Below are positions 1 through 59,900 of a stretch of 64,000 nucleotides of DNA, in pieces (the first letter of the stretch is position 1; every line of letters begins with the position of its first letter). The DNA lies in assembly GCA_903837285.1 (NCBI GenBank), contig CAILUD010000009.1, positions 3,284 to 67,283 of the forward strand, in the 5' to 3' direction. The position numbers and the translations under genes were made by a program. The notes under the pieces are model-generated. The model did no database searches. It saw nothing but the letters and a program-made list of their open reading frames with translations, and had not been told where the DNA came from. This DNA comes from an uncultured Bacteroidota bacterium. Its GTDB lineage: Bacteria; Bacteroidota; Bacteroidia; Bacteroidales; GWA2-32-17.

Positions 1-3000
1 TTGAAGCCAATGCTAAAAATTGATTTACTTTATTAACTGGCACTTGCTCTTTAAACGCGCCTATTTGTACCTTAAAATTAATTGCACTTTTATCAGCAGG
101 TAAATTATTATTTTGTTTTACTTCTACAGTCTGTTCTGGATACTTAACTTCAACCTGCTCTGTATTGGCACCTGGATTTTGCATTTCAATTTTAGTTGCC
201 TCAACTACACTTATTCTTTTACCATTATAATATGCAGACACAAAAGCATCAGGTATTCCAAGTTGAATTATTCTGTTTTTTTCATTATCAGCTTTTTTGA
301 AATCGGAATATTTTCCGGTAGTGTAACGAATAAATCCATAAGCCTGTTCTTCATATATTGGTGAAAGATTTTTTAAATCTTCTGAAGAAACTGGATTTTT
401 ATATACACCTATTTGTACAGTATAAAATAAACCAGAAGTTGTTGATACGTTAGTGGAATTCACTACCTGTTTAACATTATTCTGAGCAGTTGTATTATTT
501 ACCTGATTATTGTTATTATTCTGATTATTTATATTTGCATTCTGATTAACTGCAGCAACTGTTCTATTTTTAACTTTTTCAACCTCAGCTTGAGCCAACA
601 AATTATAATTTTCATTATCTCCACCATCTTTAAGCATTCTGCGGGCATCAAATAACGAAATACGTTTTCCATCTTTATATGCTACAACAAAGGCATCGGT
701 ATAGCCAATTGGCTTAATTTGATTACGAACAATATTTGCAGCATCCTCAGAATAAAATAAGCCTACATAATACCTAACATACTGACTTCCTTCAAGTGTT
801 TCGCCAGTTATTGGATTTAAACCTTTAAAAGCCTCATTTTTAACAGGTGCTTTGAATGCTCCAATTTGAACTTTAAATACTATTCCTTCGGGTAAAGGAA
901 CATTCATAGGAATTGGACTGGTATTGTTATAAGCATTAACTGGAAGTATTGAGAAGCCAAATCCTGTTTTATTTAACGCCTCGGTAATTGACTTATTTGA
1001 AGTGTTATTATCCGGTGGATTAACAAAATTTGTGTTTATATTATTTGTTACATTATTATTTTCAACTACCAGATTAGTTTTTGTAGCAGTATCAACAGGT
1101 GAAACATTATTTATTACTACGTTGTTATTTTGATTATTGTTTTCAATAACTGTATTTTTCACATTGTTAGAAGTATCTACAGGTGTTGTATTATTTTCTA
1201 CAATTAAATTTGTTTTTGTGGTTGTATCAACTGGAGAAATATTATTTATAACTACATTGTTATTTTGATTATTGTTTTCAATAACTGTATTTTTTACTTT
1301 GTTAGCTGTATCGACTGGTGTTGTATTATTTTCTACAATTAAATTTGTTTTTGTGGTTGTATCAACTGGTGTTGTATTGTTTTCGACTACTAAATTTGTT
1401 TTTGTGGTTGTATCTACTGGTGTTGTATTATTTTCAACAATTAAATTTGTTTTGGAGGTTGTATCGACTGGAGTTGTATTATTTTCAACAATTACATTTG
1501 TTTTTGTACTTGTATCAACCGGAGAAATATTATTTACTACTACGTTGTTATTTTGATTATTATTTTCAACAACAGTATTTTTTACCTTGTTAGCAGTATC
1601 TACAGGTGTTGTATTATTTTCTACAATTAAATTTGTTTTTGTGGTTGTATCAACTGGAGAAATATTATTTAAAACTACATTGTTATTTTGATTATTGTTT
1701 TCAATAACTGTATTTTTTACTTTGTTAGCTGTATCGACTGGTGTTGTATTGTTTTCGACTACTAAATTTGTTTTTGTGGTTGTATCGATTTGAGTTTCAA
1801 TATGTGTAATGTCAGCATTAGTTTTAACTATTAAATTATTGTTTTGATTATTATTTTTAGCAGGATGTTTTAATGCATATTCTTTTATTTCATCATCTAA
1901 AGGTTTTAAATTTAGGTAAATTCCATAGGCTCTTTCCTGATCTTCAATTGCTTCTTCTTCAAGCTTTATTGCCTCTAAAGCTATAACATATGCTTTACGA
2001 GCATCTTCTTTCATGAAAGCTTTTTCGGTAAGGGCTTTACCTTTTGAAAATTTTGCATTTGCATCTTTTTCTAATTGTTTACCTTGTCTGGCCTCGTTTG
2101 TATTATCGTTTAAACGGGTTTTCTTGAAATTCTCTTTATATAAATAAAAACGTGCATCATTTATACTTTCGTTAATTTCAACTGAAGTAAACTGACTAGC
2201 AAACATATTCTTTTCAACCTTTGGAATTTGCTTCTCGGCCTTCTTCTTATCTTTTGCGTTTGCAGGTAACTCAACTATTTTTTGCAGACTATCTAATTCA
2301 GCTTTAAATTTATTTGCATCAGCTATTAATTGATTTGAAATAACTCTTTTCTTTTCAACCTCATCTAGCCGAATTAATTCTTCTTCGGTTAAACTAAGTT
2401 TAGAAACAATTCTACTTGTTTTAATTCTTACAATTTCATTAACATCAACAGGCTGATTTAATACATCGAGTCTATCAACCTTTGTTAAGCCATTTGTTGA
2501 AACAAAGAACACGGGATTTACATCTGTTAGCACATCTACAGCATATTCCTGACTAGATAGTGCTTTATTCTCAAAATCTGTTGCACGCTTTAATTCCTCG
2601 ACTTTTAAATTTTTATCTGTAATACTATTTGCATTCTGTTTAATTTTAATGGCTTCGGCAAAATAAAAATCGGCTTCACTTGTATATTGTTTTGCAATTG
2701 ACTTATTATTACCTACATCAGGGGAAGATGCTTGAAACTGTTTTATTTGATTTTGATAAACCCTAAATTTTAAACTATCAGCATTACCATAATACTTGTA
2801 TGCATTAAGCATTTGATCAAGTGCTTTTTGTTCTTTTGCATCAATCCCTTTTAATAGTTGCTGTTTTTCTTTGGTAGAAAAAGTTGCTGCTGCCTGATTT
2901 CTTTTAACTTCAATTTCTGCCAATACCTTTTTTGACTCGGCTAATAAAACATCAGCTTTATGTGTTTCGGTATTATAAGTTTTTAATTGATTCTCTTCGT

Positions 3001-6000
3001 CGGGATTTAAAGTAATCGCAACAGTTCTGGGAACTAAATTAGTGTCGGGAGAAACTGTATTAAAGTTTTTGTTTGCATTTAGATTTGAAACATTGTTAGC
3101 ATTATTAACATTGCTAACATTATTTACAGTTTGATTTTCGGCAGTTAAATTTGTTTGAGACTTTTTAAATAAATCGATAGAATACTTTTGTTTTTGAATT
3201 GCAATTTGCTCAATGTTATCAGCTTTATTATATTCCAATAATACTTCCTCTGGCTTACCTAACAATTCTGCATCTTTGCGGACATTTGCAGCTTTTTCAA
3301 AATAGATTTCTGCTTCTTTATCAAGCATATTTGCTAATCTTATATCTGGATTTGTAAGATCTATTTTTTTATTAGCATCAATTACATCTTTATAAATAGA
3401 TGCTGCATCCTGATTAGATTCCTTTGAAACAGTTGCATATTTTTTAATATACTCATCTTGTTTCTCAAGTTTTAAAATAAGTTCTTTATCTATTTGTTTT
3501 TGAGTTTTTGCATCAGCAGTTTCGCGTTTTTTATTTAAATCGTTGATTTCTGCAGTTATTTCAGAATAATTTTTTTGAACTCCTTTAAGATATTCGCGAT
3601 CATTTTCAACTAAACTCATTATTTGCTTTTGCTCATTACTTAAATTTAATTGACTCTTCATTTTATATTGAGTCGCATTAAGAACTAGCTGTTCATTTGT
3701 TACAGAATTAGTATCTACCTCAGAAACTGCTTCACCACGTAATTTATCTGCATTTAATTTGCTTTGATTTCTGATTTGAGTGTTTTTTTCTACATCTTTA
3801 TTCAATTCAGCAATTTGTTTTTCGATAGATGTTTTCGTAGCCTGATCTGTTGTATTACTCAAACTGTATTTCAACATATCAACTTTGGTTCTTTGGTCCC
3901 TAACTAAATTCTCATAATACTGAGAATTTAAAACTTCCTTTTGATAAGAAACAAGCTTTGAGTCTTTATTTGACGAATTCTCATTATTAAACGGGAAAAC
4001 AGAATTACTATTATAAATATTTGTGTTATTATTTGTTGCAAGAGTTTTATCATTTGCTTTAGCTTGTTTTAACAAATCATCACTTTGCTTACGTTTTAAC
4101 TCTTTTAAATCGTTAAGTTGAGTAATTTCATTATAGGCAGCAGCATGCTTTTTAGGATCGGTTATACTCGCCATTGCCTTCTCTTTTGAAGAAATAACAG
4201 ATTGTAATGAGTCGGCTATTCTACCACTTTTCTCGGCTTGAGTATAAAGATTTTCTGGTTTTGAAGTATTACCAGACTCAATATTATTTGTAACTTTATT
4301 ATTATTTTGAATATTGTTATTTGCAGTAATATTATTATTCTGTAAAACCGTATTTGCATTTTTAACATCTACACTAAGTTCCTTTTCAAATATATCTTTA
4401 TGTAGCTGATCTTTGTTAATACTTTTTGTTAACACCGCTATATCTTGTGTTGATCTATTATCAGAAGTTACATTCGTTTGTAAATTCTTTAGAAACTTTA
4501 TTTCATCCTGTAAATTATCACTGGCTAATTTTGACTTCTCGTAGTTTTCTTCTAATAATGAATCTTTTTCCTGATAGCTTACAAGTTGTTTGTTTTTATT
4601 TTCTAATTGTTTTGACAGTTCAGTTTTCTTTGTATTATCATTTTCGTTATCTATCTGCTGTTTTAAAGTACTTACCTCATCTTCTATACTTGAAATATCA
4701 TTTTTATTAGCATTAAATTCTTTTTCATTTTGCAAAAACTCAACTTGCTTTGTATTTGCAAGGTTAGTTCTGTTTTCAATTTCATTTTCGATTGTTGTAT
4801 ACTTATTCTGGCTGCTACTTAATCGTTCTTTATTTTTATTTACAATATCAACCAGACTTTCATTATTAGAATTATCTGCATTACTTATAGCCTCTTTAAT
4901 GTTTTTAGTTTTAGATGCATCTTTCTCAATATCACTAGCTACCTGATCTAAATTCTTTGCTAAGTTATATGCTGTTACTGCATTATTTTCAAGATTTTCT
5001 GCATCAGTTATTAAATTATAAATCTCTTGTTTTTTCTTTTCTGCTTGGTTTTGATCAGATATTTTATTTAATTCTGTTGTTTTATCGCTTGCAATTTTTC
5101 TTTTGTTATTTGCCTCATTATTTTTTTCGATAGCTGATAAATATGCTAAATCGCTTTGCTTTCTTAAATTATTAGCCTGCTCACTTACTACCTTTTCATC
5201 ATTAGCAACTTCGGCACTTAATTGTTGAGTTGTTACATTTGGAGTATACGAAATAGGCTTAAATTTATATCCAGACTGATTTTGAAGACTATTGTTATTA
5301 GTATTATTTTGAGCTAACACCTGTTTATTTGCAAGTTCATTATGAAAATTTTCAGCTTTCTTAATATCAGCTAAAGTAGACACCTCGAGTTTTGATGTAT
5401 TTATAATTTCGTCAATATTATTAAATTGTCTTTCTATCGGCTTTTTATCAACTACAATTTTATAAACTGAAATGTTGTCGCCCGTAGTTTCACGATTTGA
5501 TGCAAAATAAGCATAAAGTTCATCTTTATCTGTAATAAAAAGATAATCATCGTAAGGAGTATTTGTAGGAAAATCGAGATTTACTGGTTTTGTCCATACT
5601 TTTGCAGTGCTATCATAAACAGATTTAAAAATATCGTATCCTCCCATACTATTATGGCCCTTGGATGAAAAATACAATGTTTTACCATCTGCCTGCAAAA
5701 AAGCATAATCTTCATCATAAGGAGTATTAACTACTGGACCAATATTTTCGGGTTTGCCCCATTTACCGAGGGAATCTTTCTTTATTTTATAAATATCCCG
5801 GCCGTTTACATTTTTATCTCCATAGCTCCCATAAAACACTTCCGTTGCATTATTTGGAAAGAATATAACATTATTTACAGTTTCTAATTTTTTATCAATT
5901 TTAGATTTAAATTCAGGTGGTTTTACAATTAATTTACCTCCAAAATCTTTTAATTCGTATGAGTAATAAAAATTATCACTTTTAATTTTCTTATTGTCTA

Positions 6001-6484
6001 CAACAGCTAAATCGCTTATAAAACGAATTAAATCTTTTCCATTGTTGCACATTGCAATTCTGCTATCAAGCAAATATTTCTTTTTATCTGCAGGCAATGC
6101 TTTTTTGGAATAAATATCATAATTACTTAACGCTTCATCAAACTTATAACTTAAATGAAACGCTCTTCCCAGATAAAACTTAATAAGAGGATTATCGCTT
6201 TTACTATCTGCAAACTGTAAATATTTTATTGCTTTTTCAATTTGCTGGTTTGTTTCAATTAAACATACTGCATAACCAAAATTATAGTTTGGTTCCTTTG
6301 GGAAAAGACTTAATAACTGTGAAAACAAAGGGAGTGCTTCAGGGAAATTTTCAGCTCTAAAAAGAGTATAAGCCTTTTGTTCTAGCTCAGTTTCTTGTGC
6401 CGATTTAGCTTTATCTTGAGCTTGCAAATTAATAACACAAGAAAAAGATAAAAAACAAAATAAAATAACTACTCTAATAATCAT
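1..6484 (-). CDS. Giant envelope protein (>2,161 aa, C-terminus beyond left edge): signal peptide, TPR-like helices, PD40/TolB-like propeller repeats, ~1,200-aa K/E/N/Q-rich helical region, nested tandem repeats, at least 3 SPOR-like domains
   Basis: Absent from the ORF track because it is edge-truncated. Manual reverse-complement translation from ATG 6484..6482 (MIIRVVILFCFLSFSCVINLQAQD...) stays open to position 2. That is 2,161 codons plus 1 nt, so the frame closes exactly. Motifs: DGKTLYFSSKGHNSMGGYDIF (PD40-like); FKVQIGAFKAPV...GYTDAFVVAYKDGKRI, YTVQIGVYKNPV...GIPDAFVSAYYNGKRI and FKVQIGAFKEQVP (SPOR-like). Confidence 0.8.
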   Translation of the reverse strand, partial: MIIRVVILFCFLSFSCVINLQAQDKAKSAQETELEQKAYTLFRAENFPEALPLFSQLLSLFPKEPNYNFGYAVCLIETNQQIEKAIKYLQFADSKSDNPLIKFYLGRAFHLSYKFDEALSNYDIYSKKALPADKKKYLLDSRIAMCNNGKDLIRFISDLAVVDNKKIKSDNFYYSYELKDFGGKLIVKPPEFKSKIDKKLETVNNVIFFPNNATEVFYGSYGDKNVNGRDIYKIKKDSLGKWGKPENIGPVVNTPYDEDYAFLQADGKTLYFSSKGHNSMGGYDIFKSVYDSTAKVWTKPVNLDFPTNTPYDDYLFITDKDELYAYFASNRETTGDNISVYKIVVDKKPIERQFNNIDEIINTSKLEVSTLADIKKAENFHNELANKQVLAQNNTNNNSLQNQSGYKFKPISYTPNVTTQQLSAEVANDEKVVSEQANNLRKQSDLAYLSAIEKNNEANNKRKIASDKTTELNKISDQNQAEKKKQEIYNLITDAENLENNAVTAYNLAKNLDQVASDIEKDASKTKNIKEAISNADNSNNESLVDIVNKNKERLSSSQNKYTTIENEIENRTNLANTKQVEFLQNEKEFNANKNDISSIEDEVSTLKQQIDNENDNTKKTELSKQLENKNKQLVSYQEKDSLLEENYEKSKLASDNLQDEIKFLKNLQTNVTSDNRSTQDIAVLTKSINKDQLHKDIFEKELSVDVKNANTVLQNNNITANNNIQNNNKVTNNIESGNTSKPENLYTQAEKSGRIADSLQSVISSKEKAMASITDPKKHAAAYNEITQLNDLKELKRKQSDDLLKQAKANDKTLATNNNTNIYNSNSVFPFNNENSSNKDSKLVSYQKEVLNSQYYENLVRDQRTKVDMLKYSLSNTTDQATKTSIEKQIAELNKDVEKNTQIRNQSKLNADKLRGEAVSEVDTNSVTNEQLVLNATQYKMKSQLNLSNEQKQIMSLVENDREYLKGVQKNYSEITAEINDLNKKRETADAKTQKQIDKELILKLEKQDEYIKKYATVSKESNQDAASIYKDVIDANKKIDLTNPDIRLANMLDKEAEIYFEKAANVRKDAELLGKPEEVLLEYNKADNIEQIAIQKQKYSIDLFKKSQTNLTAENQTVNNVSNVNNANNVSNLNANKNFNTVSPDTNLVPRTVAITLNPDEENQLKTYNTETHKADVLLAESKKVLAEIEVKRNQAAATFSTKEKQQLLKGIDAKEQKALDQMLNAYKYYGNADSLKFRVYQNQIKQFQASSPDVGNNKSIAKQYTSEADFYFAEAIKIKQNANSITDKNLKVEELKRATDFENKALSSQEYAVDVLTDVNPVFFVSTNGLTKVDRLDVLNQPVDVNEIVRIKTSRIVSKLSLTEEELIRLDEVEKKRVISNQLIADANKFKAELDSLQKIVELPANAKDKKKAEKQIPKVEKNMFASQFTSVEINESINDARFYLYKENFKKTRLNDNTNEARQGKQLEKDANAKFSKGKALTEKAFMKEDARKAYVIALEAIKLEEEAIEDQERAYGIYLNLKPLDDEIKEYALKHPAKNNNQNNNLIVKTNADITHIETQIDTTTKTNLVVENNTTPVDTANKVKNTVIENNNQNNNVVLNNISPVDTTTKTNLIVENNTTPVDTANKVKNTVVENNNQNNNVVVNNISPVDTSTKTNVIVENNTTPVDTTSKTNLIVENNTTPVDTTTKTNLVVENNTTPVDTTTKTNLIVENNTTPVDTANKVKNTVIENNNQNNNVVINNISPVDTTTKTNLIVENNTTPVDTSNNVKNTVIENNNQNNNVVINNVSPVDTATKTNLVVENNNVTNNINTNFVNPPDNNTSNKSITEALNKTGFGFSILPVNAYNNTSPIPMNVPLPEGIVFKVQIGAFKAPVKNEAFKGLNPITGETLEGSQYVRYYVGLFYSEDAANIVRNQIKPIGYTDAFVVAYKDGKRISLFDARRMLKDGGDNENYNLLAQAEVEKVKNRTVAAVNQNANINNQNNNNNQVNNTTAQNNVKQVVNSTNVSTTSGLFYTVQIGVYKNPVSSEDLKNLSPIYEEQAYGFIRYTTGKYSDFKKADNEKNRIIQLGIPDAFVSAYYNGKRISVVEATKIEMQNPGANTEQVEVKYPEQTVEVKQNNNLPADKSAINFKVQIGAFKEQVPVNKVNQFLALAS
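1091..1783 (-). repeat. Nested in-frame tandem repeat inside the giant CDS: 135-nt units x4 and 51-nt units x3, order A-A-B-B-B-A-A
   Basis: Unit boundaries read directly: A 1091-1225, A 1226-1360, B 1361-1411, B 1412-1462, B 1463-1513, A 1514-1648, A 1649-1783. The B unit encodes TTTKTNLIVENNTTPVD. A2 and A4 differ at about 5 of 135 nt. Confidence 0.9.
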
Positions 6485-9650: not shown

Positions 9651-9695
9651 AAATTTAAACCTAACAGGTTTTAGAAACCTGTTAGGTTTAAATTT
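9651..9695. terminator. Bidirectional hairpin between convergent genes
   Basis: Perfect 21-bp inverted repeat, aaatttaaacctaacaggttt / aaacctgttaggtttaaattt, around a 3-nt centre, with A/T runs on both sides. Confidence 0.7.
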
Positions 9696-10581
9696 ATTTA
9701 ACCTTTTCGTCCTCAGCTTGCAAAACCTCATTATTTGAGCTCTTATAAACAAAAGCCACAATTTTAAGGTTTTTATGCTTAAAATCTTTTTGTTTTAAAT
9801 TATAGAAATATGATTTAACAATTGAACTATCTTTATCTGTTTTAGTTGGATCTATTGTTACACCTAAATTTCCATTTAATCCATCTCTGTATACATGCAT
9901 ATGATTATAACTTGGAATTTCATTTGGGGTAACATCATAACTTTTCTGTGGTTTAATAATACTATCTTCAGTTATGCAACAATAGAACAATAAAGGTTCG
10001 GTAATATTTTCAAGAAAAGTGAGCTTAACATGAGTACAAAATGAACTATCGGTGCTGTTGTAATTATTAATTATTTGCATTCCAATTTTTGGTGATGTAT
10101 TAATAACAGATTGCACAACGGTTTCCCAAGAATTCCATGGAACAACCACACTTCCATTATAATTAATTCTGTTAATCATTCCCTGAGGTAATCCTAAATC
10201 AGAAATATGAAATGCTTGATCGACAAATGTTCCTTCATCGGTTCTAAAATCATAAGTAAATAAACCATTTACATCAGGTGAAGCATAAAAATCGCTTACA
10301 TGCATTGCATAAGAAACAATCGTATCGTCGCCGTATGTTGAAATTAGGTCATGTAATTTCACATGCGCTCTTGGACAATAACCACATTTATGACCTGTGA
10401 AATCTTCTACTAATACTTTTCGATAAACAATTCCAAGTGCCGGAAATTCTGGAACTGGACATTGCAATGGAATTACTTCTTCATTTTCGGTATAAGGACC
10501 TTCAATTTTATCGCAGCTAACAATAATCACCATTAGACTTAACCCTAACAATAAAAAAATATTCTGTATAATGTTTTTCAT
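9694..10581 (-). CDS. Lipoprotein with thioredoxin-like CGYC motif (Omp28-related type)
   Basis: Signal peptide plus lipobox (VIIVSC). Motif EDFTGHKCGYCPRAH, with C66-x-x-C69 at nt 10375..10386. The module is paralogous to the N-terminus of the 12842..14815 protein. Confidence 0.6.
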   Translation of the reverse strand: MKNIIQNIFLLLGLSLMVIIVSCDKIEGPYTENEEVIPLQCPVPEFPALGIVYRKVLVEDFTGHKCGYCPRAHVKLHDLISTYGDDTIVSYAMHVSDFYASPDVNGLFTYDFRTDEGTFVDQAFHISDLGLPQGMINRINYNGSVVVPWNSWETVVQSVINTSPKIGMQIINNYNSTDSSFCTHVKLTFLENITEPLLFYCCITEDSIIKPQKSYDVTPNEIPSYNHMHVYRDGLNGNLGVTIDPTKTDKDSSIVKSYFYNLKQKDFKHKNLKIVAFVYKSSNNEVLQAEDEKVK

Positions 10582-10593
10582 AAATATTCTTTT

Positions 10594-12234
10594 TTAAAAA
10601 CTTGAACTTAATGCTAAAATAAATCCGTTTGATGCAGGCACACTTCTGCAAACTCCTCCCACACACATTATCCCCTGACGTTGTCTGCCATATCCAATTT
10701 GAATGCGATTACTACCTTTTGCATATGTAATAGCAGCAGTATAATAATGGAGTTGCATTTCTTTGTCTTCATTTCCATAATTATATTGATCAGATAATGA
10801 GAAAAACCATTTTGGTGCTATAGAATATTCTGCCTGTAACATTAGCCAGTTTCCCATATCCTGTTCGGTAAAAAGTGCTCCTAATTCAATATGAATGGCA
10901 TTTTTATCATTTATTTTATAAAGCATATCTGCAATACCTGCATTTCCATAAACAGTGCCATGCCCTTTTCTTAACACATAAGAATTATAAATCAGGTTTT
11001 GATAAATAAAATTTCCACTAAATCTTTTCGAGAATTTTTTATTTATTTCAATATTAAAATCCTGAAAATATAATTCGTTTCCTGGCGTAAAAAATTCTGA
11101 TTCATAACCTAAAGTTCCGGATACACCAATTACAGAAGTATCTGAAGGAGCCGATTTATCAATACTATTTAATCTGCTAAAGTTTATAGAAATATTTGTT
11201 CCGTATTTACCACCTAACAAAGTTGTTTTTTTAAATTTATACATTAGTTCTGCTCCACCACCCATTTCGCCGTTTGACTGAGTTGCATAAGGATAAAAAT
11301 TCAAAAAAGAATAGGTATAAGATTTTGTAAGTATTGGTAAATAATTAATATTCAAGTCAATTAAACCAGCATTTCTATTTGACCGAAAAGCCATATTATC
11401 AACTCTTTTAGCATTAAGCAAAACTCCAAAACCTTTTTTTGAAAAACTTGTACTAATTAATAATGCTTCGCCTGGTTTATATATGTATAGATTATCGGCT
11501 GACGGGTCATTTATTTTGTATGCGTACTCGGTGTTAAAATTAATTGCACCTCTTGTAATATTCATTCTTGCTGCCCATGCGCCAACATTTTCGGGAAGTT
11601 TATACAATGGATCTTTATCGGCTTGATATTTACTTACAAAACTACCACCCAAAATAATCTGAGTTTTACTTTCGCTCATAAACTGCAATAATTCATTTGT
11701 ATTTATTTCGCCATCAACTCCCCTAACAATGCCAGGGCCTTTATCAAAAAAGAATCTTTGTTTCCCTACTAATCCTTTTACAGAAACCCCTTTATAAATT
11801 TGATATTTAACTCTTACTCCATCAAAAGCATTATCATATCCCAATCCTTTTTCTTCATATGCTCTAAGAATTAATCCATTTCCAAACTGATCGTAAAAAC
11901 TTCCGGCAGTCACTTCAAGTTCATCAGCCTTGTAAGTTAAAAAACGATATGGAATGCCATTTCCATTGTATCTGGAATCGTATCCTGACAATGTATTCAT
12001 ATATGCTTCGTATCTTATTCCGGCAGTAAAATTACCTTTAGAATAAGTTAAGTTAGCATAGGCATTAAGAAGCATTTTTTCAGGGATTTTTGGTGCACTA
12101 ATTAAACTATCTTCTTTATAAGTTTGCATGTCAACCTGAAAATTTCCATGCAATTGACCTTCGTTATTTGTTTGTGCCTGAGAATAAATAGAAATTAAAA
12201 TAAAAACAGGAACAAAAATATTTTTAAATCGCAT
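10594..12234 (-). CDS. Predicted outer-membrane beta-barrel (porin-like) protein
   Basis: Signal peptide (FILISIYSQAQ), aromatic/Gly-rich alternating strand pattern throughout, and a C-terminal ...LALSSSF ending in Phe as is typical of OMPs. Confidence 0.55.
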   Translation of the reverse strand: MRFKNIFVPVFILISIYSQAQTNNEGQLHGNFQVDMQTYKEDSLISAPKIPEKMLLNAYANLTYSKGNFTAGIRYEAYMNTLSGYDSRYNGNGIPYRFLTYKADELEVTAGSFYDQFGNGLILRAYEEKGLGYDNAFDGVRVKYQIYKGVSVKGLVGKQRFFFDKGPGIVRGVDGEINTNELLQFMSESKTQIILGGSFVSKYQADKDPLYKLPENVGAWAARMNITRGAINFNTEYAYKINDPSADNLYIYKPGEALLISTSFSKKGFGVLLNAKRVDNMAFRSNRNAGLIDLNINYLPILTKSYTYSFLNFYPYATQSNGEMGGGAELMYKFKKTTLLGGKYGTNISINFSRLNSIDKSAPSDTSVIGVSGTLGYESEFFTPGNELYFQDFNIEINKKFSKRFSGNFIYQNLIYNSYVLRKGHGTVYGNAGIADMLYKINDKNAIHIELGALFTEQDMGNWLMLQAEYSIAPKWFFSLSDQYNYGNEDKEMQLHYYTAAITYAKGSNRIQIGYGRQRQGIMCVGGVCRSVPASNGFILALSSSF

Positions 12235-12242
12235 TTGAAAAA

Positions 12243-12758
12243 TTATTCGTTAATTTTTTCTCCTTTTGCAAGCTTCTTAATTTTCTCATAAATAAGATCT
12301 TCATCTCCTTCTGCATATGTTGTGTGCTGATAAACCACATTTCCTGAGGCATCAATTAAAAAAGTATGTGGTACATTAATTACATTAATTGCACGCTTAA
12401 AATCGCTGTTTGCATCTAATAATACAACATATTCCCAACCTTTTCCATTAACAAAAGGTGATACTCTGTTCATACTTTTCGAATCGTCGATTGAAACTGC
12501 ATAAAGTTTTACACCAGTTTCGGTTTGCCAATCCTGATATTTTTCTGCAATTGCAGAAAGTTCCATTACACAAGGCTTACACCATGTTGCCCAAAAGCTT
12601 ATTATTATTGGCTTTCCGTCATTTTTTATTTCTGATGTATTAAACTTTTTACCATCCATTGTTTTAACATCAACATTTGGTAATTTAAATTCATTTGTTT
12701 GAGCAATAGAATAATTAACAACAAACAAGGCAAATAAAGCAAAAAAGATTGTTTTCAT
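12243..12758 (-). CDS. TlpA/ResA-like periplasmic thiol-disulfide oxidoreductase
   Basis: Signal peptide and thioredoxin motif FWATWCKPC. Confidence 0.85.
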   Translation of the reverse strand: MKTIFFALFALFVVNYSIAQTNEFKLPNVDVKTMDGKKFNTSEIKNDGKPIIISFWATWCKPCVMELSAIAEKYQDWQTETGVKLYAVSIDDSKSMNRVSPFVNGKGWEYVVLLDANSDFKRAINVINVPHTFLIDASGNVVYQHTTYAEGDEDLIYEKIKKLAKGEKINE

Positions 12759-12774
12759 AGTATTATTTTAAAAA

Positions 12775-12820
12775 GAAATCAGTAACCCGGTGGCAAAGAT
12801 TGCTCCAAATTACTGATTTC
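12775..12820 (-). terminator. Intra-cluster stem-loop followed by a T-run (possible partial terminator or processing site)
   Basis: Perfect 11-bp stem gaaatcagtaa / ttactgatttc with a 24-nt loop. On the minus strand it is followed by TTTTT, 17 nt before the tlpA-like start. Confidence 0.4.
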
Positions 12821-12841
12821 AAAAATTAAAGAACTAAAAAA

Positions 12842-14815
12842 TTATCTTGCTAAAACAATATTTCTAGTAGCAACATTATTTTCATTAGTTATTCTTGCAA
12901 AATAACTACCATTTGCTAATGAAGAAAGGTCTAATTGTTCATTATTAGAAACAATAGATTTTGAGTACACTAAATTACCTAGCATGTCAAAAATTTCAAT
13001 TGAAGAATTTTCTGCGTTTGTTAGATACATTGTTCCATTTGATGGATTTGGAAATAAATTAATTGCAGCATCTCTCGTTGGATTTTCAAAGCCAGTAATA
13101 TTTCCTGTTACATTAATATCATCAACAAAAGCATTATTTCCATAATCACTTGTTGCTCTGATACGGATCAGAACATCTGTTAAACCATTATAAGCAGCTA
13201 AATCAACAGTTTCTTGTCTCCATTCCGTAGATGTTGGAGTTGTAAATGCTGCTGTTCCCATTGCAGCACCTGTAGTAAGAGCAGATCCTGATTTAACCCA
13301 TTTTTGAATCCATGTTGTACCGCAATTAGTTGAAACATCTACTTCTAATTTGTCAAGTTCTGCAGTAGCACTATATGCTCTATGTGCCACCCAAAATGTC
13401 ATTGTTGAACCAGTTGTATTTGTAAAATCAGCTTTTGGCAAAATTAAATCATCAATTTTTCCTGAAGCAATGTTATAAAAATCTATAAATGCAGAACCAG
13501 CTGCTGTATGACCAGCTGTTCTTCTAGCCCAGTTTAAACCATCAGCAGAAGCATCAACTATTGCATAGTTTAATGGAGGGAAAGTTGTGCTAGTAAAGTT
13601 TTGAGTTAAAGGAGTAACTGTTGAACTTGAAAATACCGCAAAACTACTTGAATAAGAGTCATTTAACAAATTCCAATCAGTATTACCATTTGGAACACTT
13701 GAAGAAATTGTTAAAGTATGAGATCCATTCCCTGTAGAAGTTACAGAAGGAAGAGCTACAGTTGCTGTTGCACCTGTTGCTAAAGAACCAGTCCAGTTAT
13801 ACGTTGCAGGAGTTCCGCCATCAACACTATAAGAAATAGTTGCAGATGTAAGAGTTGTGGTTCCTGCATTTTTTAAAGTAGCAGTTGGAGCAAAAGTGCC
13901 AGTACAAGTATAAACAGGTACACCAGTAATTGCAGTAACAGAGGCATCAAATGAAGGCTGATTTACTGCCTTAGCATCTGCACTTAATACTTCTTGATTT
14001 CCTTCTGTTACAAAAGCAACAATTTCCAATTGTGGTATTTCAACACCAACACTTGTGTAACCAGCCGGTAAGGTATATGTAAAAGTTTGAGTAAAAAAAG
14101 TTCCTGCAGTAGTAGTTGGTATAGAAATTCCCCATTGACCAGTTATTAAATGCCTTAACATATGTTGATGTAAATATTTTCCATCAGAAGTAACCATTGT
14201 AGGGTTAAAAACAGAACCATTTGATTGTGGTCCTTTTACATTATTTTGACAAATAGCAACATTTAATTTATTTGTTGTTGCAGTGCTGTTTGCAGTATAA
14301 TACACTTCTACTAAAACTGTTAATACACGTGTTGTATAATCAACTGTAGGGTTAATAGCAACGTTAACACATGATGTTTGACCTAAGATTGTTGCAGCAT
14401 CTGCATCCCAGAAATTTCTTGCTAATGCAGTATTAGTTCCATTATCACCAGATGCAGTCATTCCATGACCAAAAGCATGTCTATTAATAGTTCCTGCTGG
14501 ATAAGCAGGTACAACTGCCTGTGTAGAAAGAGCAGTACCAAATGATGTTCTGTAGTCAGGTTGACCTGAATTTGGTGCTGCAAAAGAACCTTCGTGTATT
14601 GCAATTGGAAAAAAGACTCCAGGATGAGCTACTTGAATATCATGAGCTATTTTATGTCCATCTGGACAATAGCCACAATTAATACCTGTATACTCTTCAA
14701 GAACAACCCTTTTATTCATAGGAGTTGTGCTAACAATTGTTTGAGCAATTATTCCAGTTGTGCTGAAAATCGTAGCCCCAAGAATTAAACTTTTAATTAC
14801 GTTGATTTTTTTCAT
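12842..14815 (-). CDS. T9SS-secreted surface protein: thioredoxin-like CGYC module, T/S/A-rich beta domains, type A sorting domain
   Basis: Motif EEYTGINCGYCPDGH (CGYC at nt 14666..14677). The C-terminus NLFPNPSNGTMYL...GSYFARI...NIVLAR is a T9SS CTD. ATG 14815 (MKKINVIKSLILG) is preferred over the track start at 14842. Confidence 0.7.
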   Translation of the reverse strand: MKKINVIKSLILGATIFSTTGIIAQTIVSTTPMNKRVVLEEYTGINCGYCPDGHKIAHDIQVAHPGVFFPIAIHEGSFAAPNSGQPDYRTSFGTALSTQAVVPAYPAGTINRHAFGHGMTASGDNGTNTALARNFWDADAATILGQTSCVNVAINPTVDYTTRVLTVLVEVYYTANSTATTNKLNVAICQNNVKGPQSNGSVFNPTMVTSDGKYLHQHMLRHLITGQWGISIPTTTAGTFFTQTFTYTLPAGYTSVGVEIPQLEIVAFVTEGNQEVLSADAKAVNQPSFDASVTAITGVPVYTCTGTFAPTATLKNAGTTTLTSATISYSVDGGTPATYNWTGSLATGATATVALPSVTSTGNGSHTLTISSSVPNGNTDWNLLNDSYSSSFAVFSSSTVTPLTQNFTSTTFPPLNYAIVDASADGLNWARRTAGHTAAGSAFIDFYNIASGKIDDLILPKADFTNTTGSTMTFWVAHRAYSATAELDKLEVDVSTNCGTTWIQKWVKSGSALTTGAAMGTAAFTTPTSTEWRQETVDLAAYNGLTDVLIRIRATSDYGNNAFVDDINVTGNITGFENPTRDAAINLFPNPSNGTMYLTNAENSSIEIFDMLGNLVYSKSIVSNNEQLDLSSLANGSYFARITNENNVATRNIVLAR

Positions 14816-14859
14816 AAGGTAAATCGATTTAGTGTGGTACAAATATAAAAATATTTTAG

Positions 14860-28353: not shown

Positions 28354-30696
28354 TTAAAGATCCACCCCTTCTATAATATCTCCACCAGGTTGTTCTTCAT
28401 CTTTTGATTTACTACAATCTGCATTTACTTTCATGCTTTTTGGTTTATCAAATGTTTCTTTTGTTGAATAGCCAAGTTTTTTATCGGCATATACTTTTTC
28501 CATATAATAAGCCCATATTGGAAGAGCCATGCTTGCACCCTGTCCGTTTTCGGTACTTGCAAAGTGAACACCTCTATCCTCACCGCCTACCCATACACCA
28601 GTTGCTAATCGCGGAGTTAAACCAACATACCAACCATCAGAGTTATTTTGTGTTGTACCTGTTTTTGCAGCAATATCGCCTTCAATTTTATATTTTCCTT
28701 TAACACGCCAGCTGGTACCAAAAGCAACAACACCTCTTAATAATTCAATCATTAAATAAGAAGTTTCTTCACTGAATGCCTCTGTTCTTGTTGGTTTAAA
28801 TGTTGAAAGCACATTTCCGTTTTTATCTGTAATCCTTGTTACAAATATTGGTTGCGTGTAAATTCCACGATTCGAAAAAGTACTAAATGCTCCAATCATT
28901 TCTGCTAAACTTAATTCTGGTGTTCCCAAACAAATTGAAGGAACAGCATCAATGCGACTTCTTACTCCCATTTTCCTTGCAACATTTATTACAGCATCCG
29001 GACTATAACGTTTCATTAACCAGGCAGAAATATAGTTTACAGAATTTGCTAATGCCCATTTTAAAGTTACCATTTGCCCATCCTTTTTTGTTGTTCCACT
29101 ATTTTTTGCAGTCCATGAAGTTCCATCTGGTAATTCAAAGGTTACTGGTATAAGCGGAACTTCATAACAAGGCGAATAACCTTCCTGCATAGCCAATGCA
29201 TATAAAAAAGGTTTAAATGTTGAACCTACCTGGCGTTTTCCCGACTCAACCATATCATACTGAAAATGTTTAAAATTCATTCCACCAACATAGGCCTTAA
29301 CAAAACCTGTCTGCTGATCAACCGACATTAAGCCTGCCCTTAAATAATATTTATAATATTTTATAGAATCCCATGGAGTCATAATAGTATCTATATCGCC
29401 TTTCCAAGAGAATACAGACATTTGAGTTTGCTGATGAAATGTTTTTTCAATTTCCTCTTTTGAAAGTCCTTGCGATTTTAAAACCCTGTATCTTTCACTT
29501 CGTCTTACCGATTGATTCATTACTTCTTCAATCTGATCTTTACTCATATTCCATGCATAAGGAGCTTTTTCTCTACCTTTTTGCTCTTTAAAAAATTTAG
29601 GCTGAATCTCTTCTTTTAAGTGACGGGTCATTGCATATTCAGCATATTTCTGCATCCTGTAATTAATTGTTGAATAAATTTTTAACCCATCTTTGTATAT
29701 ATCATAAGGTGTTCCATCTGGTTTTAAATTCTTATTACACCAACCATACAATGGATTTGTTTCCCAATTTAAAGAATCTTCGTAATATTTTTGTTTATCA
29801 ATATAATTATCTTCAATAGGTTCCTTTGCGTCCATTACTATTCTCAAATACTCTCTAAAATAAGTTGCAATACCTTCTTTATGATCTGCTCTTTGGAATT
29901 CTATTTCTAATGGCAATAACTTTAGAGAATCGTATTGATTTGAAGTTATATAATCATATTTTTTCATCTGTCCCAAAACTGTATTGCGTCGTTGCATAGT
30001 TAAATCGGGGCGACGAATTGGATTATACAAAGAAGGATTTTTTGCCATCCCAACAAGCATTGCAGCCTGCTCAATTTTAAGTGAATCAGGTTCAGAATTA
30101 AAATATACTCTTGCTGCTGATTTTACACCAACTGCTAAATTCAAAAAATCGAACTTATTAAAGTACATTGTAATAATTTCTTCTTTAGTATAACGCTTTT
30201 CTAATTTTACAGCCATTACCCATTCTCTTAATTTTCTAATAATCTTTGAAAAGAAGTTTGAAAAATTTTCTCGCGGAAAAAGCATTTTTGCTAATTGCTG
30301 AGAAATTGTACTGCCTCCACCTTTACTTCCAATTCCAGTTACTGCTCTAGCAATTGCTTTTATATCCACTCCCGAATGTGAATAAAACCGAACATCTTCG
30401 GTCGCTATCAACGCTTTAACGAGATATGGCGAAAGATTTTCAAATTTAACACTCGATCGATTCTCTAAAAAATAATTTCCCAGAACAATTCCATCGCTTG
30501 AAATCACCTCAGAAGCTTGATTGTTTTTTGGGTTTTCCATCTCAGGAAAGCTCGGCATGTATCCAAAATATCCTTCAGAAATAAAAAAGAATAAAATGAA
30601 AATTGATAAAATTGGAAAAATAAAAATAAACCATAATATTTTTATATATTTCTTAAATGCCTTTTTATCAGTATTATTAACCGGACTTTTCTCCAT
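28354..30696 (-). CDS. Class A penicillin-binding protein (PBP1A family)
   Basis: Glycosyltransferase motifs EDVRFYSHSGVD and GGSTISQQLAK. Transpeptidase motifs STFK, SVN and KTGTT. Confidence 0.9.
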   Translation of the reverse strand: MEKSPVNNTDKKAFKKYIKILWFIFIFPILSIFILFFFISEGYFGYMPSFPEMENPKNNQASEVISSDGIVLGNYFLENRSSVKFENLSPYLVKALIATEDVRFYSHSGVDIKAIARAVTGIGSKGGGSTISQQLAKMLFPRENFSNFFSKIIRKLREWVMAVKLEKRYTKEEIITMYFNKFDFLNLAVGVKSAARVYFNSEPDSLKIEQAAMLVGMAKNPSLYNPIRRPDLTMQRRNTVLGQMKKYDYITSNQYDSLKLLPLEIEFQRADHKEGIATYFREYLRIVMDAKEPIEDNYIDKQKYYEDSLNWETNPLYGWCNKNLKPDGTPYDIYKDGLKIYSTINYRMQKYAEYAMTRHLKEEIQPKFFKEQKGREKAPYAWNMSKDQIEEVMNQSVRRSERYRVLKSQGLSKEEIEKTFHQQTQMSVFSWKGDIDTIMTPWDSIKYYKYYLRAGLMSVDQQTGFVKAYVGGMNFKHFQYDMVESGKRQVGSTFKPFLYALAMQEGYSPCYEVPLIPVTFELPDGTSWTAKNSGTTKKDGQMVTLKWALANSVNYISAWLMKRYSPDAVINVARKMGVRSRIDAVPSICLGTPELSLAEMIGAFSTFSNRGIYTQPIFVTRITDKNGNVLSTFKPTRTEAFSEETSYLMIELLRGVVAFGTSWRVKGKYKIEGDIAAKTGTTQNNSDGWYVGLTPRLATGVWVGGEDRGVHFASTENGQGASMALPIWAYYMEKVYADKKLGYSTKETFDKPKSMKVNADCSKSKDEEQPGGDIIEGVDL

Positions 30697-59751: not shown

Positions 59752-59900
59752 ATTTATCATCATGTTAACTTGGTTTAAAATTCAAAACATAATCTAAATC
59801 GTTTTAAAAATAAAAATATTCTTTGATTTTAAATTAAAACAATTAATTATTCTGTAACTTTACAATGAAAAAGGAATTACATTTTAATAATATATTTACT

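What the first reader, a model, noticed from the sequence alone, without database searches (positions are those of the whole stretch)
1..6484. Largest gene in the window is missing from the ORF track: a >2,161-aa TPR/PD40/helical/SPOR protein
The minus strand is open from ATG 6484 to the left edge. The N-terminal third resembles the TPR plus PD40 (TolB-like) module that usually precedes an OmpA-C domain in Bacteroidota envelope proteins. Here that module is followed by three further parts:
- about 1,200 aa of K/E/N/Q-rich sequence that looks helical or coiled-coil-like (nt ~5470 down to ~1800);
- a nested repeat block;
- at least three SPOR-like peptidoglycan-binding modules (~885-640, ~430-190 and 80-1) in place of OmpA-C.
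At 0.15 nm rise per helical residue, a continuous helix of that length would be far longer than a periplasm is wide. The region must therefore fold back or be partly extracellular. The combination suggests a peptidoglycan- or septum-anchored spacer or scaffold.
Basis: partly seen in the sequence, partly recalled or inferred. Interest (0 to 1): 0.55.

Follow-up and report, generated by a model that had tools for sequence, protein, structure and literature searches.

The report
Giant periplasmic wall-anchored tether protein
The left end of the window holds a real gene of about 2,225 codons for an uncharacterised Bacteroidota envelope protein: a partner-binding head, a long jointed helical rod made partly of a previously undescribed repeat, a floppy variable linker, and three cell-wall-binding SPOR domains. 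It most likely ties a conserved partner to the cell wall at division sites.

Summary
The minus strand is open for 2,161 codons from ATG 6484 to the window edge (chance about 1e-88). An ortholog shows only about 64 residues are missing. The gene is absent from the ORF list only because it runs off the edge.

Architecture:
- Sec/SPI signal peptide with an invariant Gln after the cleavage site.
- A 3-TPR domain, then a PD40-type beta module of about 3 blades.
- About 1,100 aa of confident (AlphaFold pLDDT 80) folded-back helical bundles of 21-58-residue helices, joined by Asn-rich flexible segments. They include three tandem copies of a new four-helix "U" unit with no Pfam or PDB match.
- A hypervariable N/T-rich repeat linker (34-362 aa across the family).
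- Three mutually homologous SPOR domains, each with the glycan-contacting Gln conserved in at least 109 of 111 relatives.

The family has thousands of sequences, all from uncultured Bacteroidota, none characterised. Shorter relatives (signal peptide, U, linker, SPOR) show that U plus SPOR is the conserved core.

Best reading: a periplasmic tether anchored to denuded-glycan peptidoglycan whose PorE-like head holds a conserved partner. The architecture is shown; the function is inferred. It fails membership tests for PorE (no OmpA_C, CRD or lipobox) and for FtsN/DamX (no membrane anchor). Verdict: new variant of a known kind, moderately interesting.

The parts
1..6484 (-). Whole gene as held in the window: 2,161 codons, with the 3' end cut by the window edge. 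About 64 codons are missing, judged from the ortholog L001:4996-11706.
6419..6484 (-). Signal peptide, residues 1-22. Cleavage is predicted at LQA|Q, and Gln23 is invariant in the 49-sequence family alignment (Bacteroidota Q-rule). The two Cys inside the signal peptide are not conserved, so there is no lipobox.
   Evidence: PMC5837995
6020..6400 (-). Three-repeat TPR domain with capping helix, residues 29-155. Contains the invariant C74.
   Evidence: Pfam TPR_19 and TPR_16. AlphaFold pLDDT 94-97. Foldseek TM 0.7-0.8 to CHIP, SycD and PcrH TPR domains.
5435..6019 (-). Beta module, residues 156-350: an N-terminal beta-hairpin region followed by about three PD40-like repeats of about 54 residues. 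This is the most conserved part of the protein.
   Evidence: Pfam PD40 at 25.7-31.4 bits against a cut-off of 20.9. 12 strands in the model. Internal repeat HHalign 96-97%. Conservation profile.
4328..5230 (-). Helical block D1, residues 419-719: five to six long helices (49-58 residues) with short turns.
   Evidence: AlphaFold model m884b6a024134, pLDDT mostly 80-93
3668..4258 (-). Helical blocks D2 and D3a, residues 743-939. These are helical hairpins related to the first half of the U unit and are flanked by Asn-rich segments of low confidence.
3134..3637 (-). U1, residues 950-1117: first copy of the four-helix U unit.
   Evidence: HHalign U1-U2 98.8% and U1-U3 99.6%; reversed-profile controls at most 3%
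2525..3004 (-). U2, residues 1161-1320: second copy of the U unit.
1850..2386 (-). U3, residues 1367-1545: third and best-conserved copy of the U unit. It is shared with the short U-SPOR relatives.
935..1849 (-). Hypervariable N/T-rich linker, residues 1546-1850. It holds the nested tandem repeat (17, 45 and 141 aa units; nt 1054-1836).
   Evidence: TRF. Family occupancy 0.2-0.6; length 34-362 aa with lineage-specific repeats.
635..889 (-). SPOR module 1, residues 1866-1950. Key Gln is Q1873.
   Evidence: Pfam SPOR at 24-33 bits against a cut-off of 21. Gln present in 111/111 members.
170..436 (-). SPOR module 2, residues 2017-2105. Key Gln is Q2024.
   Evidence: HHalign to module 1 at 99.9%, E 6e-31. 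Gln present in 110/111 members.
1..88 (-). SPOR module 3, residues 2133-2161, cut by the window edge. Key Gln is Q2140.
   Evidence: HHalign at 99.7% using the family alignment and the full L001 ortholog. Gln present in 109/111 members.

Best explanation
The gene encodes a protein of about 2,225 aa. It is exported by Sec, cleaved by signal peptidase I, and stays in the periplasm as a peptidoglycan-anchored tether.

**Proposed mechanism.**
1. The three C-terminal SPOR domains bind glycan strands that amidases have stripped of peptides. These are enriched at the septum and at new poles. Three domains on flexible linkers would give avid, multivalent anchoring.
2. A hypervariable disordered N/T-rich linker connects the anchor to a jointed rod of about 1,100 aa. 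The rod is built of folded-back helical bundles, including three tandem copies of a new four-helix "U" unit that elsewhere always travels with SPOR.
3. At the far end, a very conserved head (a 3-TPR domain plus a PD40-type beta module, the same domain pair that in PorE contacts the outer-membrane barrel PorP) holds a conserved partner. That partner is probably an outer-membrane protein or lipoprotein.
4. The protein would thereby couple that partner to septal or denuded wall at a set reach.

**Shown:** the open frame, the domain content, the fold-back helical structure, the internal repeats, family conservation, and the SPOR signature Gln.

**Inferred:** periplasmic location, denuded-glycan binding, the identity of the partner, and the tethering role.
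For: **Real, conserved gene.**
- More than 1,520 homologs at E<=1e-5, and 3,789 at E<=1e-10 with the family profile. The listed best hits are 1,486-2,694 aa.
- The head and the SPOR region are the most conserved parts. The middle is alignable at 0.8-1.0 occupancy.

**Export.**
- All sampled members have a signal peptide ending A/S-Q, and Gln23 is invariant in the 49-sequence alignment. This fits the Q-rule for SPI substrates (PMC5837995).
- There is no conserved lipobox Cys.
- No T9SS C-terminal domain and no OmpA hit.

**Wall anchor.**
- Pfam SPOR is above its cut-off.
- The three modules are homologous at 99.7-99.9%.
- The one residue conserved across SPOR domains, which contacts the glycan (RlpA Q270, HMM position 8; PMC6895207), is present in 111, 110 and 109 of 111 members.
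- A Bacteroidota SPOR domain (CHU2221) binds denuded glycan at 0.8 uM and goes to septa in E. coli (bioRxiv 10.1101/2022.07.01.498525).

**Rod.**
- AlphaFold pLDDT 80.2, 77% helix, 22 helices of 21-58 residues with short turns.
- U1, U2 and U3 are homologous at E 1e-17 to 1e-24, with clean reversed-profile controls.

**U travels with SPOR.**
- 319 representative clusters carry U.
- 9 of 10 sampled non-giant carriers show a C-terminal SPOR match, 6 of them above Pfam's cut-off.
- The short relatives L002 and L003 carry a U3-like unit plus three SPOR domains.

**Head.**
- TPR fold at TM 0.7-0.8 to peptide-binding 3-TPR domains.
- The PorE WD40 domain is needed for PorP binding, and its OmpA_C domain for wall binding (PMC12773672).
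Against: - There is no experimental datum for any family member, and all relatives found are from uncultured organisms.
- No conserved gene neighbourhood points to a partner or process.
- Only one PD40 repeat passes Pfam, and a closed propeller was not shown. Neither the beta module nor the U unit has a PDB relative.
- The CHIP-type carboxylate-clamp residues are not conserved in the TPR, as read from the alignment. The ligand type is therefore unknown.
- The C-terminal region was not modelled, so the SPOR fold of modules 2 and 3 rests on sequence only.
Confidence: 0.5

Rival explanations
1. A PorE-like accessory of the type IX secretion or gliding machinery. The head binds a PorP/SprF-type outer-membrane barrel, and the SPOR tail replaces OmpA_C as the wall anchor. 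The long rod lets the complex reach or move relative to the wall.
For: - The head has the same TPR plus PD40/WD40 order as PorE, whose WD40 domain is needed for PorP binding (PMC12773672).
- Gliding Bacteroidota have several PorE homologs, most of them not lipoproteins (PMC12773672).
- The organism has a T9SS: PorZ-like and PorU-like genes and several CTD proteins are in the window.
- An invariant Cys sits in the head, in a phylum where periplasmic disulfides link outer-membrane proteins to the track (PMC12635249).
Against: - There is no OmpA_C, no CRD and no lipobox.
- The gene is never seen next to T9SS core genes in the five neighbourhoods read.
- No direct sequence comparison with PorE could be made.
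- C74 aligns with a Cys that is also present in CHIP's TPR, so it may be purely structural.
- SPOR targets denuded glycan rather than general wall.
Confidence: 0.17
2. A dedicated cell-division protein, functionally analogous to FtsN, DamX or DedD. It would be recruited by SPOR domains to the septum, where the rod and head regulate or organise septal wall synthesis, hydrolysis or outer-membrane constriction, in the manner of Tol-Pal and CpoB.
For: - All characterised SPOR domains target division sites (PMC6895207; bioRxiv 10.1101/2022.07.01.498525).
- The domain types echo the Tol-Pal set: TPR as in CpoB, PD40 as in TolB, a long helical segment as in TolA, and a wall binder as in Pal. This comparison is from my own knowledge, not from a test here.
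- JGI's automatic annotation named one mid-sized U-SPOR relative "cell division protein FtsN".
Against: - There is no membrane anchor and no cytoplasmic or FtsN-type essential region. A cleavable signal peptide is present instead.
- The gene is not in a division and cell-wall gene cluster in any locus read.
- The "FtsN" name rests on SPOR alone.
- RlpA-type SPOR proteins show that SPOR does not imply a regulatory divisome role.
Confidence: 0.15
3. A self-assembling periplasmic structural element: a fibre, lattice or spacing "ruler". The helical bundles would polymerise or set the distance between the wall and the outer membrane. The SPOR domains would simply fix it to the wall.
For: - Total length is tightly held across the 120 best hits (5th-95th percentile 1,876-2,330 aa). 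Among the aligned members, the helical part has a coefficient of variation of 0.10.
- The rod is built of repeated bundle units joined by flexible hinges.
- Foldseek's weak best hits are F-BAR, talin or vinculin type bundles and designed helical building blocks.
Against: - The Foldseek hits are not significant (best E 0.09).
- AlphaFold places the helices in intramolecular bundles with high confidence, leaving no evident free coiled-coil surface.
- The linker next to the anchor varies ten-fold in length, which is odd for a precise ruler.
- The strongly conserved head argues for a specific partner.
Confidence: 0.1
4. Not a functional gene: a chance open frame, a low-complexity artefact, a pseudogene, or a surface or secreted adhesin mis-read as periplasmic.
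For: - The sequence is AT-rich and Asn-rich, with tandem repeats.
- Pfam scores are only just above the cut-offs on the full-length protein.
Against: - The chance of an open frame this long is about 1e-88.
- There are thousands of full-length homologs with conserved domain order.
- AlphaFold models are confident for 1,661 residues.
- There is no T9SS C-terminal domain and no lipobox.
Confidence: 0.03

Closest known systems
PorE (PG1058) of Porphyromonas gingivalis, and the Bacteroidota TPR-PD40-OmpA_C "Pal-like" proteins such as Cytophaga hutchinsonii CHU_0125
   Same: - An N-terminal TPR domain is followed by a PD40/WD40-type beta module.
- A C-terminal peptidoglycan-binding region is present.
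- The protein is periplasmic and Bacteroidota-specific.
- In PorE the beta module contacts an outer-membrane partner and the tail binds the wall (PMC12773672, PMC7192894, PMC5891637).
   Different: - The wall binder is three SPOR domains, not OmpA_C.
- There is no CRD domain and no lipid anchor.
- About 1,500 extra residues (helical rod plus variable linker) lie between head and tail.
- It is about 2,225 aa, against 656 aa for CHU_0125.
- Only about 3 PD40-like repeats were detected.
SPOR-domain division-site proteins: E. coli FtsN, DamX, DedD and RlpA; C. hutchinsonii CHU2221
   Same: - C-terminal SPOR with the conserved glycan-contacting Gln.
- A low-complexity or disordered linker precedes the SPOR domain, as is typical for the class (PMC6895207).
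   Different: - These proteins have one SPOR domain each; this one has three in tandem.
- FtsN, DamX and DedD are anchored in the inner membrane by an N-terminal helix, and RlpA is a lipoprotein with an enzyme domain. This protein has a cleavable signal peptide, a TPR/PD40 head and a 1,100-aa helical rod.
Short U-SPOR proteins of uncultured Bacteroidota (for example L002, 803 aa; P0195, 331 aa; P0176, 454 aa). All are uncharacterised.
   Same: - They share the U four-helix unit (HHalign 95.6-96% to U3), the N/T-rich linker and the same SPOR subtype.
- They have the same A/S-Q signal-peptide ends.
   Different: - They lack the TPR/PD40 head and the D1-D3 helical blocks.
- They carry 1-3 U units and 1-3 SPOR domains.
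- The window protein is the most elaborate member of this series.
Tol-Pal/CpoB envelope system of Proteobacteria (a functional analogy only)
   Same: The set of module types is the same: TPR (CpoB), PD40 propeller (TolB), a long helical periplasmic segment (TolA domain II) and a wall binder (Pal). The system acts at the septum. This comparison is from my own knowledge and was not tested here.
   Different: - Here the modules sit on one polypeptide rather than on separate proteins.
- No sequence or structural match to TolA, TolB or Pal was found.
- There is no link to an inner-membrane motor.

Membership tests
SPOR domain (Pfam PF05036) | The profile HMM match reaches the curated cut-off. | tested here: met
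   Module 1 scores 24.0 bits on the whole protein and 33.2 bits on the C-terminal fragment, against a cut-off of 21. The L001 ortholog scores 39.5 bits with two stretches. Modules 2 and 3 do not pass alone in the window protein, but they are homologous to module 1 at HHalign 99.7-99.9%.
SPOR domain (Pfam PF05036) | A conserved glutamine in strand beta1 (HMM position 8; RlpA Q270) that bonds the denuded glycan. | tested here: met
   Q1873, Q2024 and Q2140 lie in the motif (F/Y)(K/T)VQIG. They are present in 111, 110 and 109 of 111 family members. The definition comes from PMC6895207.
SPOR domain (Pfam PF05036) | An RNP-like fold: a four-stranded antiparallel sheet backed by two helices. | not tested
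The C-terminal region was not modelled.
SPOR domain (Pfam PF05036) | Binds denuded glycan strands and localises to the septum. | not testable with these tools
   This needs ITC or pull-down with amidase-treated sacculi, and GFP-fusion localisation.
PorE / Bacteroidota TPR-PD40-OmpA_C envelope proteins | An N-terminal TPR domain followed by a WD40/PD40 beta-propeller. | tested here: inconclusive
   The TPR is clearly present. One PD40 repeat is above the cut-off, and there are about three internal repeats of about 54 aa. A closed propeller was not shown. No PorE sequence was available for direct comparison.
PorE / Bacteroidota TPR-PD40-OmpA_C envelope proteins | [quoted passage not shown] | tested here: not met
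   There is no OmpA hit at E<=1 on the whole protein, nor at E<=5 on the C-terminal fragment. The C-terminus is three SPOR domains.
PorE / Bacteroidota TPR-PD40-OmpA_C envelope proteins | A carboxypeptidase-regulatory-like (CRD) domain between the propeller and OmpA_C. | tested here: not met
   There is no CarboxypepD_reg hit. The region after the beta module is helical.
PorE / Bacteroidota TPR-PD40-OmpA_C envelope proteins | An outer-membrane lipoprotein, meaning a lipobox Cys at the signal-peptide end (true of P. gingivalis PorE). | tested here: not met
   The Cys residues in the signal peptide (C10, C16) are not conserved. All members end in A/S-Q.
FtsN/DamX/DedD-type bitopic SPOR division proteins | An N-terminal transmembrane anchor with a cytoplasmic tail, and a single C-terminal SPOR domain. 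| tested here: not met
   The N-terminus is a short cleavable-type signal peptide with an invariant Gln after the cleavage site. There are three SPOR domains.
TolB | An N-terminal alpha/beta domain plus a six-bladed PD40 propeller (definition from my own knowledge). | tested here: not met
   The beta module is only 195 residues with about three repeats. There is no TolB hit in PDB sequence searches with the single sequence or the family profile.
Classical two-stranded or multi-stranded coiled coil | Long uninterrupted heptad-repeat helices that pair between chains. | tested here: inconclusive
   AlphaFold gives helices of at most 58 residues that turn back after 3-6 residues, with high confidence as a monomer. 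No dedicated coiled-coil predictor or multimer model was run.

The most novel reading that the evidence does not exclude
The family is a new class of Bacteroidota envelope connector. It would be a jointed helical rod with a reach of tens of nanometres, fixed by triple SPOR domains to denuded (septal or new-pole) peptidoglycan. Its PorE-like head would capture an outer-membrane PorP/SprF-type protein, possibly through the invariant Cys74. This would position or restrain secretion or gliding machinery, or outer-membrane constriction, relative to division sites. The "U" four-helix unit would be a new SPOR-partner domain with its own activity, such as glycan or amidase-product sensing.
Probability: 0.12. 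Interest if true: 0.75.

Novelty: new variant of a known kind. Interest (0 to 1): 0.5.

Why it matters
SPOR domains and PorE-type heads are each known, but they had not been described on one polypeptide. Nor had they been seen separated by a conserved helical rod of about 1,100 residues.

- If the tether model is right, many uncultured Bacteroidota link an envelope partner to amidase-processed wall through a single giant protein. That would be a new solution to coupling the outer membrane, or machines within it, to the division site in a phylum whose Tol-Pal and FtsN equivalents are poorly defined.
- The U unit is an undescribed domain family: 319 representative clusters, with no Pfam or PDB match. 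It almost always accompanies SPOR, which gives a concrete handle for domain annotation and for asking what else SPOR proteins need.
- The practical limit is that every carrier found so far is uncultured.

Tried and rejected
1. **PDB sequence searches.** The head, the C-terminal region, the beta-module profile and the U profile gave only generic TPR hits and noise.
2. **Foldseek on the 1,181-residue rod.** No hit at E<=1e-3. For the head model the TPR hits crowded out the beta module. Models cannot be subdivided, so the fold of the beta module stays unclassified.
3. **Gene neighbourhoods.** I read the window, L001, L005, L006, L007, L002, L003, L008 and L009. There is no conserved partner gene and no division or T9SS core cluster next to the gene.
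4. **Search for a cultured or named carrier.** Both the single-sequence and the profile searches listed only MAG proteins. The small U-SPOR query found 3 proteins.
5. **Whole-rod self-comparison.** It gave long off-diagonal alignments that could be compositional. I trusted only the unit-by-unit comparison with reversed-profile controls.
6. **Pfam HC2 hit in the L001 ortholog.** Rejected as a compositional match to the (IADKQ)n repeat.
7. **The weak NCBIfam SycD/LcrH hit.** 22.8 bits against a cut-off of 104.8. It reflects the TPR fold only.
8. **Idea that C74 forms an intermolecular disulfide.** Downgraded, because it aligns with a Cys in CHIP's TPR. It is not excluded.
9. **Idea that the ORF-free 4.7 kb upstream of the L001 ortholog is an rRNA operon.** Rejected: there is no Rfam hit and the stretch is not N-masked.
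10. **Sigma-70 promoter scan upstream of ATG 6484.** No better than shuffled sequence, and not the right model for Bacteroidota promoters.

Full report
**1. The observation**

Translating window:1-6484 on the minus strand gives 2,161 codons without a stop. The other five frames over the same span contain 101-363 stops. With the strand's base composition (stop probability 0.089 per codon), the chance of such an open frame is about 1e-88. An in-frame stop lies 18 codons upstream of ATG 6484.

The gene is missing from the mechanical ORF list only because that list omits ORFs that run off the source. The longest complete ORF elsewhere in the window is 1,175 aa, so this is the largest gene in the window.

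A genome-collection scan found a 66%-identical ortholog over residues 1-2161 in "Bacteroidetes bacterium GWA2_32_17" (L001). That ORF ends 64 residues after the point where the window stops. The window therefore holds about 97% of a protein of about 2,225 aa.

**2. Anatomy**

*(a) Signal peptide, residues 1-22.* All sampled relatives have a hydrophobic N-terminus ending A/S-Q, and Gln23 is invariant in the 49-sequence alignment. This is the Bacteroidota "Q-rule" signature of signal peptidase I substrates (PMC5837995, PMC10653852). The two Cys inside the signal peptide are not conserved, so the protein is not a lipoprotein. No T9SS C-terminal domain and no OmpA domain is detected.

*(b) TPR domain, residues 29-155.*
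- Pfam TPR_19 and TPR_16 match.
- AlphaFold gives pLDDT 94-97 here.
- Foldseek matches three-repeat peptide-binding TPR domains (CHIP, SycD, PcrH) at TM 0.7-0.8.
- In the CHIP alignment the carboxylate-clamp positions are not conserved, so the ligand type is open.

*(c) Beta module, residues 156-350.*
- The model shows twelve strands.
- One PD40 repeat is above the Pfam cut-off (31.4 bits against 20.9).
- Internal repeats of about 54 residues are detected at HHalign 96-97%, which means about three PD40-like blades.
- This is the most conserved part of the protein. It has no PDB relative by sequence, even with a family profile.

*(d) Helical rod, residues about 419-1545.*
- AlphaFold with a 49-sequence alignment gives mean pLDDT 80.2 and pTM 0.57. 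985 of 1,181 residues score at least 70.
- The region is 77% helix: 22 helices of 21-58 residues (at most 8.7 nm), joined by 3-6 residue turns.
- The low-confidence breaks are Asn-rich low-complexity segments at 717-741, 815-840 and 1113-1152. The rod is therefore a chain of folded-back bundles with flexible joints. It is neither one long helix nor an obvious coiled coil.
- Three successive blocks share the same helix-length pattern (about 39, 47, 27 and 30-40 residues): U1 at 950-1117, U2 at 1161-1320 and U3 at 1367-1545.
- These blocks are homologous. HHalign gives 98.8-99.6% with E 1e-17 to 1e-24, while reversed-profile controls give at most 3%. D2 and D3a resemble the first half of the unit.
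- Nothing known matches. Pfam finds nothing in residues 380-1560. Foldseek finds no PDB hit at E<=1e-3. The U profile finds nothing in PDB sequences.

*(e) Variable linker, residues 1546-1850.*
- The nested tandem repeat is real, with periods of 51, 135 and 423 nt and 17-aa units ending in PVDT.
- Across 111 relatives this segment ranges from 34 to 362 aa, is N/T-rich, and carries lineage-specific repeats. The L001 ortholog has about 30 copies of IADKQ plus an extra insert instead.
- It behaves as a fast-evolving disordered tether.

*(f) Three SPOR modules.*
- Module 1 passes Pfam SPOR.
- The three modules are mutually homologous at HHalign 99.7-99.9%.
- Structural work on RlpA identified one residue conserved across SPOR domains: a Gln at HMM position 8 that hydrogen-bonds the denuded glycan (PMC6895207).
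- Here it is Q1873, Q2024 and Q2140, present in 111, 110 and 109 of 111 relatives, together with conserved basic residues.
- A Bacteroidota SPOR domain (Cytophaga CHU2221) binds denuded glycan at 0.8 uM and localises to septa in E. coli (bioRxiv 10.1101/2022.07.01.498525).

**3. The family**

- The single-sequence search scored more than 1,520 proteins at E<=1e-5. The family profile scored 3,789 at E<=1e-10. Each is a lower bound from 8,000 candidates.
- The 120 best hits are 1,486-2,694 aa, with a median of 2,072.
- Every named hit is a MAG of Bacteroidales, Bacteroidia or Bacteroidota, called "hypothetical" or "PD40 domain-containing". No cultured organism appeared.
- No paper in the searchable library combines SPOR with this architecture.
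- Conservation is highest in the head and the SPOR modules, moderate but alignable in the rod, and lost in the linker.
- Head and SPOR lengths are almost fixed (CV 0.01-0.04). The rod has CV 0.10 and the linker CV 0.43.
- Gene neighbourhoods differ in every locus read.

An exhaustive profile search with U3 against 1.84 billion representatives found 319 clusters, 128 of them at E<=1e-10. They fall in three size classes:

| Class | Length | U stretches |
|---|---|---|
| Giant | about 1,900-2,600 aa | 2-7 |
| Mid-sized | about 600-930 aa | 1-3 |
| Small | about 305-480 aa | 1, starting near residue 40 |

Of ten non-giant carriers sampled, nine show a C-terminal SPOR match and six of those are above Pfam's cut-off. 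Their sequences read signal peptide (A/S-Q), U, N/T/E-rich linker, then one to three SPOR domains.

L002 (803 aa) and L003 carry a U3-like unit (HHalign 95.6-96%, E 1e-8) plus three SPOR domains. So U plus SPOR is the conserved core. The window protein is the most elaborate form, with extra helical blocks and a TPR/PD40 head.

**4. How it most likely works**

*Shown:* an exported, non-lipidated protein without outer-membrane or surface sorting signals. Its C-terminus carries three domains with the SPOR signature, its N-terminus carries a highly conserved protein-interaction head, and the two are separated by a folded helical rod and a variable disordered tether.

*Inferred:*
- The protein stays in the periplasm.
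- The SPOR triple anchors it with avidity to denuded glycan, which is enriched at septa and new poles.
- The head holds a conserved partner.

The best analogy for the head is PorE. In PorE the WD40 domain is needed for binding the outer-membrane barrel PorP, and the OmpA_C tail must bind the wall for function (PMC12773672). CHU_0125 shows the same TPR-PD40-OmpA_C layout in Cytophaga (PMC5891637).

From helix lengths alone, the bundles are about 4-9 nm each. Placed end to end, the five or six blocks would span several tens of nanometres.

I put 0.5 on this tether model. Three narrower or alternative readings follow.
- **PorE-like T9SS or gliding accessory (0.17).** The window does encode PorZ-like and PorU-like proteins and several CTD cargos.
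- **Dedicated divisome protein (0.15).**
- **Self-assembling structural element or ruler (0.10).**

Artefact, chance ORF or surface adhesin is essentially excluded (0.03).

**5. Comparison with known families**

- The three C-terminal modules qualify as SPOR by profile score, internal homology and the key Gln. Their fold and their binding remain untested.
- The protein fails three defining features of PorE: OmpA_C, CRD and lipid anchor.
- It also fails the defining membrane anchor of FtsN, DamX and DedD.
- It should not be filed under PorE or under FtsN/DamX/DedD, although it may work like a PorE with a different anchor and a very long body.
- A TolB-type six-bladed propeller is not supported.
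- The U unit and the rod as a whole have no described counterpart.

**6. Novelty and verdict**

The sequences exist in public databases by the thousands, but only as unnamed MAG proteins. The architecture, the triple SPOR, and the U domain with its consistent pairing with SPOR appear undescribed in the literature I could search.

I rate it a new variant of a known kind (a SPOR-anchored envelope protein), with interest 0.5. The case is real, well defined and somewhat surprising in scale and composition. Its function is inferred only, and so far it is confined to uncultured organisms.

Noticed in passing
L001:1-4700 (MENF01000200.1, upstream of the ortholog): About 4.7 kb with 38-48% G+C, against about 29% for the gene. 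It has no ORF over 71 aa on either strand, no Rfam family at gathering score, and is not N-masked. It could be a chimeric assembly or a large non-coding element. It remains unexplained.
   Followed up: partly
L001:about 9,900-10,600 (the variable linker of the ortholog): In place of the window's NNTTPVDT-type repeats, the ortholog has an extra beta-rich insert of about 120 aa (VFCYRQIIRETDG...FYIDNEG) and about 30 tandem copies of IADKQ. Other relatives have their own repeat types. This linker is a hot spot for repeat turnover.
   Followed up: partly
window 6263-6265 (codon of Cys74) and 6047-6049 (Cys146): The mature protein of about 2,140 aa has only two cysteines. C74 is invariant in 111/111 relatives, even where C146 is Ala (20/111). 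It aligns with a Cys in CHIP's TPR, so it may be structural. A partner disulfide, as recently shown for SprF/PorG-GldK, is not excluded.
   Followed up: partly
window 9694-14842 (minus strand): A cluster of Omp28-like (295 aa), DUF6029 (546 aa, 614 bits), AhpC/thioredoxin-like (171 aa) and an Omp28-like protein with a T9SS C-terminal sorting domain (666 aa). It looks like a conserved outer-membrane and redox module of unknown role.
   Followed up: no
window 49946-52270 (+) and 59865-63392 (+): There is a PorZ-like protein (N-terminal beta-propeller, 140 bits). There is also a C25-family peptidase with propeptide, Ig-like domain and T9SS sorting domain, which is PorU-like or gingipain-like. The organism therefore has a type IX secretion system. 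A class A PBP lies at 28354-30696 (-).
   Followed up: no
L008:6761-9089 and L009:6761-9089: The small U-SPOR gene (P0243, 362 aa) lies directly downstream of a second 393-aa gene with a faint SPOR hit. Both follow a sigma-70 family gene, so they may be a tandem pair of SPOR paralogs.
   Followed up: no
Proteins P0183 (2,164 aa; U at 1920-2088) and P0241 (2,641 aa; U at 1265-1429): These two giant proteins carry the U unit at positions unlike the main family, which suggests further architectures built on this domain.
   Followed up: no
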